From: an uncultured Candidatus Melainabacteria bacterium
GTDB lineage: Bacteria; Cyanobacteriota; Vampirovibrionia; Gastranaerophilales; Gastranaerophilaceae
DNA length: 26,297 nucleotides
Direction: 5' to 3'
NCBI GenBank assembly: GCA_946622835.1
Contig: CAMOQI010000001.1
Span: 1 to 26,297 of the forward strand
The notes beneath the pieces were generated by a model. That model had not been told where the DNA came from. It saw only the letters and a list, made by a program, of their open reading frames with translations, and did no database searches. Positions within the stretch are counted from its first letter, which is position 1. Each line of letters begins with the position of its first letter. The position numbers were made by a program, and so were the translations under genes. Shown here piece after piece: positions 5,881 through 7,607 of the stretch.

Positions 5881-6933
5881 TTACTTATCAAATATCAACC
5901 TGTTTGCAGCTTCTACAACATCAGCAGGATTTGGAAATTCAACACAAGCGTTAATATTTTTATGCAAGCGGCATTTTCTTTTAAAACATGGTTGGCACGG
6001 AAGCCCGGCTCCCCCCATTGATATGTATTTCATAGGATTTCCGTATGGTCCAAGAACTTCTTTTGGGGTACAAGTGAATATTGCAATGACTGCCGGTTTT
6101 CCTGTTGCCCATGCCAGATGCGCGCTTCCGCTATCCGGAGCAATTACAAGATTTGCCCTTGAGAAAACTTCTATAAGTTCTATTATTTCCGTTTTTCCGG
6201 CAAGATTTATAAATTTACCACCGCTTATATATTCTATTAATTCATTATCCGCAGGCCCGCCCGTAAAGACTATATTACAATCTTGCGACAGGTTATTTAC
6301 AACACTTTTCCAATTATCCCTATCCCAATGTTTATTGTCCCACGTCGTTGCAGGAGCAATTACTACAAGTGGTTTTGTTTTATCTAAATCCTCCAGCAGC
6401 ATATCAATTTTTTTGATTTGTTCTTCGCTGCGCGCCGGCAATGTCACTCTTATTTGCTCCGGATTTATTCCGAGATAATTTGCGTATTTAAGATAATTCA
6501 AGACTATTGGGGAATTGGGAGCATATGAAATTTCATCTATCCATTCATTTGCGCCCAAAATTGCCAATTCTCTCGCTTCTTTGGAAATTATCCTGCGTTT
6601 TGCACCGCAAAACAACATCCAATAAAGACTTTTTAACATCATTTGAGAATCGATTGCTATATCATATTTTTCCGCCCTAATCCGCTTTAAAATTTCCAAA
6701 TATTCTTTAAAACTTTCAAAAGAAAATCCTCTCTTTTTCCACTTTACAACAGGAGCAAGTATTGCCTTATCGACACAAGGATTATTCTTTACAACCTGAA
6801 TTCCCTTTTCAGAAACCAGCCAACTCACTTCATAACCGGCGTCTTTCAAGGCATTTGCCAAAGGGATATTAAATACAACATCCCCTAAAGAAGATAATTT
6901 TATTAATAATACTTTTTTCTTTTCTTTTTCCAT
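5881..6933 (-). CDS. Glycosyltransferase family 9 (LPS heptosyltransferase WaaC/WaaF-like)
   Basis: LLIKLSSLGDVV N-terminus, PATTWDNKHW, NLAGKT and DSGSAHLA motifs. Confidence 0.9.
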   Translation of the reverse strand: MEKEKKKVLLIKLSSLGDVVFNIPLANALKDAGYEVSWLVSEKGIQVVKNNPCVDKAILAPVVKWKKRGFSFESFKEYLEILKRIRAEKYDIAIDSQMMLKSLYWMLFCGAKRRIISKEARELAILGANEWIDEISYAPNSPIVLNYLKYANYLGINPEQIRVTLPARSEEQIKKIDMLLEDLDKTKPLVVIAPATTWDNKHWDRDNWKSVVNNLSQDCNIVFTGGPADNELIEYISGGKFINLAGKTEIIELIEVFSRANLVIAPDSGSAHLAWATGKPAVIAIFTCTPKEVLGPYGNPMKYISMGGAGLPCQPCFKRKCRLHKNINACVEFPNPADVVEAANRLIFDK

Positions 6934-6950
6934 CTGTTAGTCCAACACTT

Positions 6951-7018
6951 TGTCATTCTGAGGCGGAAATATTGAGATTCTTCGCTTTGCTCAGAATGAC
7001 GATACCGCCGAAGAATCT
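6951..7018. repeat. CGTC-tagged REP-like palindromic element, nested/permuted copy
   Basis: GTCATTCTGAG (6952-6962) pairs with CTCAGAATGAC (6990-7000). AGATTCTTCG (6975-6984) pairs with CGAAGAATCT (7009-7018). GGCGG (6962-6966) pairs with CCGCC (7005-7009). Confidence 0.8.
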
Positions 7019-7067
7019 TTTCCTATACACTGTGCAAAATCATTATAATTTAATTATAATATTTCGT

Positions 7068-7607
7068 CTATTTCTTAATAAAAGTGATAAATTTATCAGA
7101 GTATTTTTTCTGTTTTATTACATTGTAACCGTCAAAATCAAGTTCTGTAACATGTTCTGCAATAATTATTCCATTACATATTTTTGATGCGGTTTTTAAA
7201 CTTTTTTGATAAATCTCTGAATAATATGGCGGATCAATATAAATAATATCAAATTTTACGTCACTTTGAGCCTTTCGGCGAAGAATCTCATCAATCTTCA
7301 AACAATCACCCAATATCAGTTGAATATCGCTATCTTTTTCGTATCTTTTAATATTTGATTTTATAACATTATAAACTTTTCTGTCCTTTTCAACCATAAC
7401 AACTTTTGAGAATCCGCGCGACAACGCTTCCAGCCCCATAATTCCGGAGCCTGCATACATATCCAAAAAACTTGCCCCCTCAAAATCAATCATAGCCTGC
7501 AAAGTATTAAAAACACTCATCCTAACCTTTGATAATGTCGGTCTTGTAATATTTTCATCAGGAGCCTGAATTTTTTGCCCTTTATATTTTCCCGCTGTTA
7601 TATTCAT
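7068..7607 (-). CDS. rsmD: 16S rRNA (guanine966-N2)-methyltransferase
   Basis: ITAGKYKG, TRPTLSKVR, LDMYAGSGIMGLEALSRG, DPPY and IIAEH motifs. Confidence 0.94.
   Translation of the reverse strand: MNITAGKYKGQKIQAPDENITRPTLSKVRMSVFNTLQAMIDFEGASFLDMYAGSGIMGLEALSRGFSKVVMVEKDRKVYNVIKSNIKRYEKDSDIQLILGDCLKIDEILRRKAQSDVKFDIIYIDPPYYSEIYQKSLKTASKICNGIIIAEHVTELDFDGYNVIKQKKYSDKFITFIKK
7259..7289 (+). repeat. Half-unit of the same palindromic repeat embedded in-frame in rsmD
   Basis: CGTCACTTTGAG-CCTTTCGG-CGAAGAATCTC matches the arms GTCATTCTGAG...CGAAGAATCT of the 6951-7018 element. It encodes RsmD E107-D116 (EILRRKAQSD). Confidence 0.75.

What the first reader, a model, noticed from the sequence alone, without database searches (positions are those of the whole stretch)
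7259..7289. The same repeat is inserted in-frame inside rsmD and translated into protein
Seen: RsmD residues 107-116 (EILRRKAQSD) are encoded by GAGATTCTTCGCCGAAAGGCTCAAAGTGAC(G). The intergenic unit GAGATTCTTCGCTTTGCTCAGAATGAC(G) would encode EILRFAQND. The arms match except at two positions, the loop is one codon longer and keeps its own mini-hairpin (GCC-TTTC-GGC), and the CGTC tag is retained. It lies in the variable helix between GD and the catalytic DPPY motif. Established precedent: Rickettsia palindromic elements insert in-frame into housekeeping genes. Inference: an analogous repeat-to-peptide process operates in this lineage, where I am not aware of it being described. This is the strongest candidate for an undescribed system in the window.
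Basis: partly seen in the sequence, partly recalled or inferred. Interest (0 to 1): 0.78.

Follow-up and report, generated by a model that had tools for sequence, protein, structure and literature searches.

The report
Hairpin repeat translated inside rsmD
A 30-base copy of a small hairpin-forming DNA repeat that litters this gut bacterium's genome sits in frame inside the ribosomal RNA methylase gene rsmD and now encodes one surface helix of the enzyme. This is a real but already described kind of event, seen here at a spot where related bacteria carry several other versions of the same repeat.

Summary
Observation confirmed. Window 7259-7289 is a slightly decayed copy (CGTC tag kept, 2 arm mismatches) of a dispersed repeat, GTCATTCTGAG-variable stem-loop-CGAAGAATCT. 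The repeat has 24 copies in this 1.36-Mb MAG and 0 in a reversed-genome control. The copy is 26/29 identical to a loop subfamily found in sister species.

None of 24 same-genus RsmD orthologues has the segment; they are 4-7 residues shorter there. Among the 120 closest metagenomic RsmD clusters, 20 carry repeat-derived peptides at exactly this site. These occur in both orientations, as a dimer, and as a repeat nested in a repeat's loop. All are in frame. The insert is present without indels in contigs of four independent gut-metagenome studies. In an AlphaFold model it forms helix 106-115 between strands 3 and 4.

The repeat is a CGTC-tagged REP (Di Nocera 2013) of the kind now tied to Ssn GIY-YIG single-strand nucleases (Chenal 2025). 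In relatives, 92-101-aa GIY-YIG genes lie among such hairpins, most with a hairpin close to each end, and two sit next to this very family. Repeat-rich genomes carry such a gene (14/17 against 9/24), whereas Y1 transposases show no association.

Intragenic REPs are in print, and this scan has noted them on other DNA (Wolbachia, CPR, Sphingomonas, Clostridia). Verdict: new member of a known kind. The recurrent hot spot is the most useful part.

The parts
7259..7289 (+). Decayed CGTC-tagged hairpin repeat (REP/SRM-like). It contains the tag CGTC (7259-7262, overlapping arm A), arm A (7260-7270, 2 mismatches), the loop CCTTTCGG (7271-7278) and arm B (7279-7289, exact). The repeat's forward orientation is on the plus strand. 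It is read on the minus strand as RsmD residues 107-116.
7068..7607 (-). rsmD, 16S rRNA m2G966 methyltransferase, 179 aa, intact. It has the SAM motif (GSG region) and the DPPY motif. Pfam PF03602 is assigned on its cluster. PDB relatives are 2fhp, 2esr and 2fpo.
7260..7292 (-). Codons for predicted helix 106-115 (DEILRRKAQS) between strand 94-99 and strand 119-124. The helix is almost wholly repeat-encoded. pLDDT is about 70 here against about 90 in the flanks.
6951..7018 (.). Intergenic reference copies of the same family in the rsmD-glycosyltransferase spacer. A perfect unit lies at 6975-7000 (minus orientation), nested in the loop of an outer unit whose arms are at 6952-6962 and 7009-7018. 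The composite folds at -22 kcal/mol (z -2.7).

Best explanation
Window 7259-7289 is a copy of a CGTC-tagged hairpin repeat. The repeat is a REP of the NTS/SRM type that in related genomes surrounds small Ssn-like GIY-YIG nuclease genes.

The copy entered the rsmD reading frame in an ancestor of this species group. It replaced about 12 bases of the short helix between strands 3 and 4 and added 18 bases net. Because it landed in one of the four open frames of the repeat, at a surface helix whose length varies among RsmDs, the gene stayed intact. The repeat is now translated as residues 107-116. Since then it has drifted: 3 changes from its subfamily consensus, and no significant hairpin is left. 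It is best seen as a tolerated passenger that has become ordinary protein sequence.

The site is a hot spot. Relatives carry other loop subfamilies, the opposite orientation, a dimer, and a young perfect unit inserted in the loop of an older one. This suggests that a resident hairpin attracts further copies.

Shown here:
- repeat identity;
- lineage-restricted insertion;
- frame preservation;
- presence in independent samples;
- co-occurrence and adjacency of the repeat family with Ssn-like genes in relatives.

Inferred:
- translation;
- near-neutrality;
- loop-targeted insertion;
- any role of the Ssn-like nuclease in moving the repeats.
For: Repeat family: 24 copies against 0 in the control. 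Copy number per genome across the order is 0-158 and patchy. The tag is C or T before GTC in 22/24 copies. Loop stems covary: GGC/GCC, CC/GG, GGGT/ACCC, GAC/GTC.

Insertion: 24/24 congeners lack the segment, as do 100 of the 120 nearest clusters.

Same site in relatives: near-perfect units in DNA at L188, L190, L184, L183 and L197, in both orientations, as a dimer and nested. Well-supported small clades mix states. The nested form differs from a 93%-identical sister gene by a 42-nt block holding a perfect unit.

Real in nature: contigs of 4 runs from 4 studies span it without indels, and a synonymous 7266 T>C variant restores the consensus.

Structure: helix 106-115. The PDB homologue 2fhp has a helix of similar length there.

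Second gene: argS carries the unit in the same frame. It is perfect in G020, and about 25 of 100 clusters read EILRSAQND.

Enzyme link: small GIY-YIG genes lie among tagged hairpins, most with one close to each end, and two genes are adjacent to this family. Co-occurrence is 14/17 against 9/24. The literature is PMC11893778.
Against: - No Ssn-like gene was found in this genome, though it is only 73% complete.
- The repeat does not fit the published degenerate SRM search string, nor the stem, loop and tail figures given for CGTC families.
- The exact insertion boundaries cannot be fixed, because the nearest uninserted genes are only about 80% identical.
- The RsmD tree is poorly resolved and places the window's protein apart from the other inserted forms at weak support. 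The number of independent events is therefore uncertain.
- No expression or protein data exist.
- In argS the unit replaces a segment of nearly equal length, which fits patch-like conversion better than simple insertion.
Confidence: 0.8

Rival explanations
1. One ancestral insertion of a repeat dimer at this site, followed by differential deletion and decay, rather than repeated insertions. In this reading the single-unit forms in either orientation are leftovers of one event.
For: P0005 carries a left forward unit and a right reverse unit. The left unit is the same type as in P0014, and the right unit has the long loop of the window's copy. Residues HN/NN next to the units are shared between forms. 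Inserted forms cluster in one part of the tree. Dimers are the commonest arrangement of CGTC REPs.
Against: At least three loop subfamilies occupy the site: CAAAG forward, CCTTTAGG-type reverse and CGAAG/CGCAG-type reverse. They cannot be derived from each other by simple deletion. The nested form has a perfect inner unit in a decayed outer unit, and it differs from a 93%-identical sister by that block, which looks like a recent gain.
Confidence: 0.3
2. The repeat sequence was copied into rsmD and argS by short-patch gene conversion or replication template switching at microhomologies, not by cut-and-paste or copy-and-paste of a mobile unit.
For: The uninserted rsmD sequence already resembles both repeat ends: GAAAAACTT and AATGAA against GAGATTCTT and AATGAC. 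In argS the unit occupies a segment of the same or nearly the same length as in uninserted relatives, and G020 has a perfect unit where others have decayed ones.
Against: The arms are only 11 nt, which is short for homologous recombination. The copy nearest to rsmD has a different loop. Insertions of whole units with tag and flanks into hairpin loops look like transposition.
Confidence: 0.2
3. The intragenic copy is kept for a function. It could be a recognition site for an Ssn-type single-strand nuclease that modulates recombination or transformation around rsmD, or an adaptive lengthening of the helix.
For: The CGTC tag and arm B, said to matter for SsnA recognition of NTS, are intact. The insert restores a helix length seen in distant RsmDs. 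In argS, 4 of 5 changes from the consensus are synonymous.
Against: The rsmD copy has lost its hairpin (z +0.27). 2 of its 3 changes are non-synonymous. Most congeners do without it. No Ssn-like gene was found in this genome.
Confidence: 0.08
4. Chance resemblance or assembly artefact.
Against: Shuffle and reversed-genome controls gave 0 hits. Identity to a subfamily is 26/29. Near-perfect units lie at the same site in relatives. Four independent studies hold the sequence, and the protein cluster is seen on 8 contigs.
Confidence: 0.01

Closest known systems
CGTC-tagged REPs (Di Nocera, De Gregorio and Rocco 2013, PMC3733652), including Neisseria dRS3 and Rickettsia RPE-4/RPE-6
   Same: A short palindromic unit with an unpaired CGTC or TGTC head. 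The stem starts with A-T and T-A. Copies are dispersed and mostly intergenic, often in inverted pairs. Distribution among species is patchy, and there is no link to Y1 transposases. Some copies lie in frame inside housekeeping genes, tRNA synthetases among them.
   Different: The stem here is 5 bp, then a conserved tandem G-A/A-G mismatch, then a variable 2-4 bp helix. Loops are 3-13 nt rather than 4-5. The tail is CTC, CTA or CTT in this genome rather than CCA. The host is a low-GC gut Melainabacteria-like genus, not a proteobacterium.
NTS/SRM hairpins and Ssn GIY-YIG single-strand nucleases (Chenal et al. 2025, PMC11893778)
   Same: The head CGTCATTC and the tail GAATC are shared with NTS. 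In relatives, single-domain GIY-YIG genes of 92-101 aa lie among tagged hairpins, most with a hairpin close to each end, and each gene has its own variant. The Tyr, Tyr and Glu spacing is as for the published Y6, Y17 and E64. Genome-level co-occurrence is present.
   Different: The repeat does not fit the published degenerate SRM string, which was built on GC-rich stems. cd10448 membership could not be tested. No such gene was found in the window's own genome. The paper does not deal with copies inside genes, and whether Ssn moves the repeats is open.
Rickettsia palindromic elements (RPE; Ogata et al. 2000, as cited in PMC3733652)
   Same: Selfish palindromic repeats inserted in frame in housekeeping genes, translated, and tolerated on the protein surface.
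   Different: RPE-1 is 100-150 bp and adds 30-50 residues. Here one 27-30 bp unit adds 5-6 residues and takes over an existing helix. The host is not an obligate intracellular bacterium.
REPIN-RAYT systems (Nunvar 2010; Bertels and Rainey 2011)
   Same: Hairpin repeats in inverted doublets. A single-copy enzyme gene is flanked by its own repeats.
   Different: Those repeats are GTAG-tagged and served by a Y1 HUH transposase. Here Y1 genes show no association, and the one RAYT-like gene looked at has its own GTAG hairpin.

Membership tests
CGTC-tagged REP superfamily | Short (20-40 bp) palindromic unit in many dispersed, mostly intergenic copies | tested here: met
   24 copies of 26-34 nt in 1.36 Mb against 0 in the control; only 2 lie inside long ORFs
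CGTC-tagged REP superfamily | Unpaired CGTC (or TGTC) motif at one end | tested here: met
   C (12) or T (10) precedes GTC in 22 of 24 copies; the rsmD copy has CGTC
CGTC-tagged REP superfamily | [quoted passage not shown] | tested here: met
   ATTCT pairs with AGAAT in all copies
CGTC-tagged REP superfamily | Stem of 8-9 bp, loop of 4-5 nt, 3-nt tail near CCA | tested here: not met
   5 bp plus a tandem G-A mismatch plus a 2-4 bp variable helix. Inter-arm segments are 5-13 nt. Tails are CTC, CTA or CTT in this genome. Copies next to GIY-YIG genes in relatives do end in ATCCA.
CGTC-tagged REP superfamily | No dedicated Y1 (RAYT) transposase | tested here: met
   PF01797 is present in 10/17 repeat-rich and 11/24 repeat-poor genomes, p 0.53. 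Y1 genes of this genome are not flanked by the repeat.
Ssn-related motif (SRM/NTS-like) repeats | Fits the published degenerate SRM search string | tested here: not met
   My transcription of the string matched none of the 12 gene-bearing loci scanned, neither this repeat nor any other hairpin in them
Ssn-related motif (SRM/NTS-like) repeats | Copies flank a small single-domain GIY-YIG gene in inverted orientation | tested here: met
   Met in relatives only. L211-L216, L219 and L220 have a tagged hairpin close to each end of the gene, in most of them in inverted orientation, and L217 and L218 have hairpins around it. This family lies 15 nt after the gene at G023:C13 and 50 nt before it at G024:C113. 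Not found in the own genome.
Ssn-related motif (SRM/NTS-like) repeats | Genomes rich in the repeat encode the nuclease | tested here: met
   14/17 against 9/24, odds ratio 7.8, p 0.01. Within the genus 9/10 against 4/15. Kin are not independent.
Ssn-related motif (SRM/NTS-like) repeats | Bound and cut by the cognate nuclease as single-stranded DNA only | not testable with these tools
   Needs purified protein and oligonucleotides
Ssn nuclease family (cd10448) | Membership of the relatives' GIY-YIG proteins in CDD cd10448 | not testable with these tools
NCBIfam gave no family and PDB only a weak UPF0213 hit. The size of 92-101 aa and the Tyr10, Tyr21, Glu68 spacing match the published Y6, Y17, E64.
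RPE-type in-frame repeat insertion | Repeat copy inside an intact ORF, in frame and without stops, absent from orthologues | tested here: met
RPE-type in-frame repeat insertion | Insert lies on the protein surface and leaves the fold and catalytic motifs intact | tested here: met
   Model pLDDT 86. The insert is helix 106-115 between strands. Motif I and DPPY are conserved. This is prediction only.
RPE-type in-frame repeat insertion | The decorated protein is expressed | not testable with these tools
   No RNA or proteome data were laid on it. Only DNA contigs were examined.
REPIN-RAYT | GTAG head and association with a RAYT gene | tested here: not met
   The head is CGTC/TGTC. There is no association with PF01797.

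The most novel reading that the evidence does not exclude
The loop of a resident hairpin is itself the preferred landing site for new copies of this repeat family. One accidental insertion in a gene therefore seeds a self-renewing hot spot, which would explain the mix of orientations, dimers and nested units in RsmD helix C and in the spacer at 6951-7018. The Ssn-like GIY-YIG nuclease, so far known only to cut such hairpins, would be the enzyme that starts these moves. That would make this genus a natural system for answering whether Ssn-hairpin cassettes are mobile elements.
Probability: 0.25. Interest if true: 0.65.

Novelty: new member of a known kind. Interest (0 to 1): 0.42.

Why it matters
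It gives a clean, well-controlled example of selfish hairpin DNA turning into protein sequence. Here the repeat takes over a whole secondary-structure element of a conserved enzyme rather than adding a floppy loop.

The series of natural alleles at one site is the useful part. It runs from empty, through single units in either orientation, to a dimer, a nested form and decayed forms. It offers material for working out how CGTC/NTS-type repeats move, which is still unknown, and whether the recently described Ssn nucleases are involved.

On the practical side, these repeats break MAG assemblies, create spurious small ORFs, and can mislead alignment of housekeeping proteins.

Tried and rejected
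- Rfam scan of 6800-7400 at a permissive E-value found only chance snoRNA and miRNA hits.
- A hammerhead reading of the CUGAG...CGAAG core was considered and dropped. Short-loop copies cannot form stem II, and the core lacks the invariant residues (own reasoning and 13 data).
- Folding of the single units is weak (-5 to -6 kcal/mol, z about -0.8), and the rsmD copy is indistinguishable from shuffles. An RNA-structure role for the coding copy was therefore dropped.
- Y1/RAYT as mobilising enzyme showed no co-occurrence and no flanking copies.
- The small GIY-YIG gene of this genome (C30) is a UPF0213/YhbQ-like syntenic gene without repeats.
- A literal search of papers for the arm sequence found only unrelated primers.
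- A proteome scan for the four open-frame peptides found only RsmD and ArgS inside real genes, so coding copies are rare here.
- The RsmD tree with the insert masked is too poorly resolved to count events.
- No DNA could be fetched for P0019.
- NCBIfam and PDB gave no name for the Ssn-like proteins.

Full report
**1. What is at the coordinates**

The minus-strand ORF 7068-7607 encodes a 179-aa RsmD. Its protein cluster carries Pfam PF03602. It matches solved RsmD-type methylases 2fhp, 2esr, 2ift and 2fpo.

Residues 107-116, EILRRKAQSD, are encoded by 7260-7289. On the plus strand the stretch 7259-7289 reads:
- tag CGTC;
- arm ACTTTGAG (with the GTC of the tag: GTCACTTTGAG);
- loop CCTTTCGG;
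- arm CGAAGAATCTC.

The spacer 50 bases downstream of rsmD (6951-7018) holds a perfect unit, GTCATTCTGAG-CAAAG-CGAAGAATCTC. It is nested in the loop of a second unit.

**2. More than chance**

- The 12-mer shared by the coding and intergenic copies occurs twice in the window against 0.06 expected.
- In the whole assembly (1.36 Mb, 262 contigs, 35% G+C, 73% complete), a scan for both arms 0-25 nt apart with at most three mismatches found 24 copies. The reversed genome gave none.
- The inter-arm segment varies from 5 to 13 nt but stays self-complementary (GGC/GCC, CC/GG, GGGT/ACCC, GAC/GTC across genomes). The unit is therefore a 5-bp A/T stem, a conserved tandem G-A/A-G mismatch, a variable G/C helix and a loop.
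- The base before GTC is C or T in 22 of 24 copies.
- One loop subfamily, CCTTTAGG, found in G005, G011 and G024, is 26/29 identical to the rsmD copy.

**3. It is an insertion**

All 24 same-genus genomes and 16 more from the order have rsmD. None has this segment. Congeners read LK-VCEKLNEK-F or close to it and are 4-7 residues shorter between GD and DPPY. The only indel in the alignment is at the repeat.

Contigs from four runs of four different gut-metagenome studies span the segment with no indel, and the protein cluster is on 8 contigs. It is therefore not an assembly artefact. Two of the runs carry 7266 T>C. This is synonymous and restores the repeat consensus at that arm position, as expected if the copy is decaying from the consensus.

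**4. The site is a hot spot**

Among the 120 nearest RsmD clusters in metagenomes, 100 have the short form and 20 have repeat-derived or decayed inserts at exactly this place. DNA fetched for nine of them shows the units directly:

| Locus | State at the site | Peptide |
|---|---|---|
| L188 | reverse-orientation unit, near perfect | EILRFAQNG |
| L190, L189, L199 | reverse-orientation units, more decayed | |
| L186 | long-loop type, like the window | EIFRLKAQND |
| L184 | forward-orientation unit | SHSEQSEES |
| L183 | forward unit, 27-nt spacer, then reverse long-loop unit | 32 residues against 8 in the empty site |
| L197 | perfect CGTC-tagged forward unit inside the loop of a decayed reverse unit | 27 residues |

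All are in frame, although two of the six frames of the repeat contain stops.

L197 differs from a 93%-identical sister gene (L189) by a 42-nt block. Its layout, with an AAATATT linker next to the inner unit, mirrors the nested copy in the window's own spacer.

A tree with the insert masked is poorly resolved. However, two well-supported small clades mix states: reverse with forward, and reverse with nested. At least three loop subfamilies occupy the site. I read this as recurrent events, probably helped by insertion into or next to a resident hairpin. One ancestral dimer with differential loss remains a partial alternative.

**5. What it does to the protein**

An AlphaFold model built on 66 sequences has mean pLDDT 86 and pTM 0.85. 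It places residues 106-115 in a helix between strand 94-99 and strand 119-124, just before DPPY. Confidence there is about 70 against about 90 in the flanks. The repeat thus encodes nearly the whole helix.

Distant RsmDs such as 2fhp have a helix of similar length here, so the site tolerates length change. Catalytic motifs are intact. Translation is inferred from frame preservation, not shown. The coding copy no longer folds better than shuffles.

**6. A second gene**

- At the same place G020 has a perfect unit reading EILRSAQND.
- G002 and G011 have decayed ones.
- About 25 of 100 homologue clusters read EILRSAQND.
- Others are 2-4 residues shorter.
- In this genome 4 of the 5 departures from the consensus are synonymous, which suggests the peptide is now under ordinary protein-level constraint.

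**7. What the repeat is**

It matches the CGTC-tagged REP superfamily in several respects: the CGTC/TGTC head, a stem opening with A-T, inverted pairs, patchy distribution, no Y1 transposase, and intragenic copies including in tRNA synthetase genes (PMC3733652). It departs in stem, loop and tail figures.

Exact-arm copies occur in MAGs and isolates of many phyla. Within the order, copy numbers range from 0 to 158 per genome. 11 of 24 congeners have none.

A note from this scan led me to Chenal et al. 2025 (PMC11893778). That paper reports that:
- Neisseria NTS, which contains dRS3 (a CGTC-1 REP), is bound and cut as single-stranded DNA by SsnA;
- SsnA is a 94-aa single-domain GIY-YIG protein;
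- its gene is flanked by its own hairpins.

I tested this here.
- Relatives carry 92-101-aa GIY-YIG genes with tagged hairpins around them, most with one close to each end, and each has its own variant.
- This very family lies 15 nt after such a gene in G023 and 50 nt before one in G024. These are the two congeners richest in the repeat.
- Repeat-rich genomes (5 or more copies) have such a gene in 14 of 17 cases against 9 of 24 repeat-poor ones. Within the genus the figures are 9/10 against 4/15. Kin are not independent.
- PF01797 shows no association.
- The own genome has no such gene at E 1e-8, but it is incomplete. Its only small GIY-YIG gene is a UPF0213-like one without repeats.
- The repeat does not fit the published SRM string, and cd10448 membership could not be checked.

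**8. Organism**

Proteins of loci fetched by the pattern scan were compared with this genome. They are 87% identical for a rumen MAG (L125), 71% for a Melainabacteria MAG (L089) and 65% for a Gastranaerophilales MAG (L085). The runs holding the window are bovine, sheep and other gut metagenomes. The host is most likely a gut member of Melainabacteria.

**9. Verdict**

The kind of event is in print and has been met repeatedly in this scan on other DNA. The added value is threefold:
- the lineage;
- the replacement of a structural helix;
- the allele series at one site, together with the link between intragenic copies and Ssn-associated hairpins.

How the repeats move remains open.

Noticed in passing
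L063-L182 (pattern scan of genome contigs): Units with exactly these two arms occur in MAGs and isolates of very many phyla: Nitrospirota, Chloroflexota, Acidobacteriota, Bacteroidota, CPR, Omnitrophota, Planctomycetota, Campylobacterota, Firmicutes and others. Such identity across phyla is unexplained. A shared recognition protein or horizontal spread are both possible.
   Followed up: partly
G000 contig C164 1092-1117 (L031), argS: This is the second coding copy of the repeat, in the same reading frame as in rsmD. G020 (L056) has a perfect unit at the same place with no length change against some relatives, which looks more like a converted patch than an insertion.
   Followed up: partly
G000 contig C24 5036-5088 (L032): A repeat dimer overlaps the 5' end of a 257-codon open frame for a protein with a signal-peptide-like start. 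The ATG inside the repeat arm (peptide LRMT) may serve as the start codon.
   Followed up: no
window 6952-7003 and many contig ends (C144, C147, C158, C182, C222): Contig depth spikes at the repeat, and several contigs begin or end in a unit. This repeat family is probably one reason why the MAG is in 262 pieces.
   Followed up: no
G000 contig C141 3665-4000: A RAYT-like Y1 gene (198-codon frame) has a GTAG-tagged hairpin just upstream. The genome therefore holds a separate GTAG REP family beside the CGTC one. Further hairpin families (CCCTCCCC...GGGGAGGG and GTTGGGC...GCCCAAC) sit next to many units.
   Followed up: no
L216 (G025:C20) 824-1488: Next to an Ssn-like gene, four units of the ATTGCGAG variant recur at an exact 213-nt period and alternate with inverted units. 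This is a tandem array of a composite element.
   Followed up: no
window 7292-7300 against orthologues: The empty site in congeners (GAAAAACTT then AATGAA) already resembles the two ends of the repeat. This may be chance, or microhomology used at insertion.
   Followed up: no
L197 1501-2079 and window 6951-7018: The nested unit inside RsmD of P0026 and the nested unit in the window's spacer share the same layout: outer arm, 4 nt, an AAATATT-like linker, then the inverted unit. The composite may therefore be a propagated form rather than two separate accidents.
   Followed up: partly
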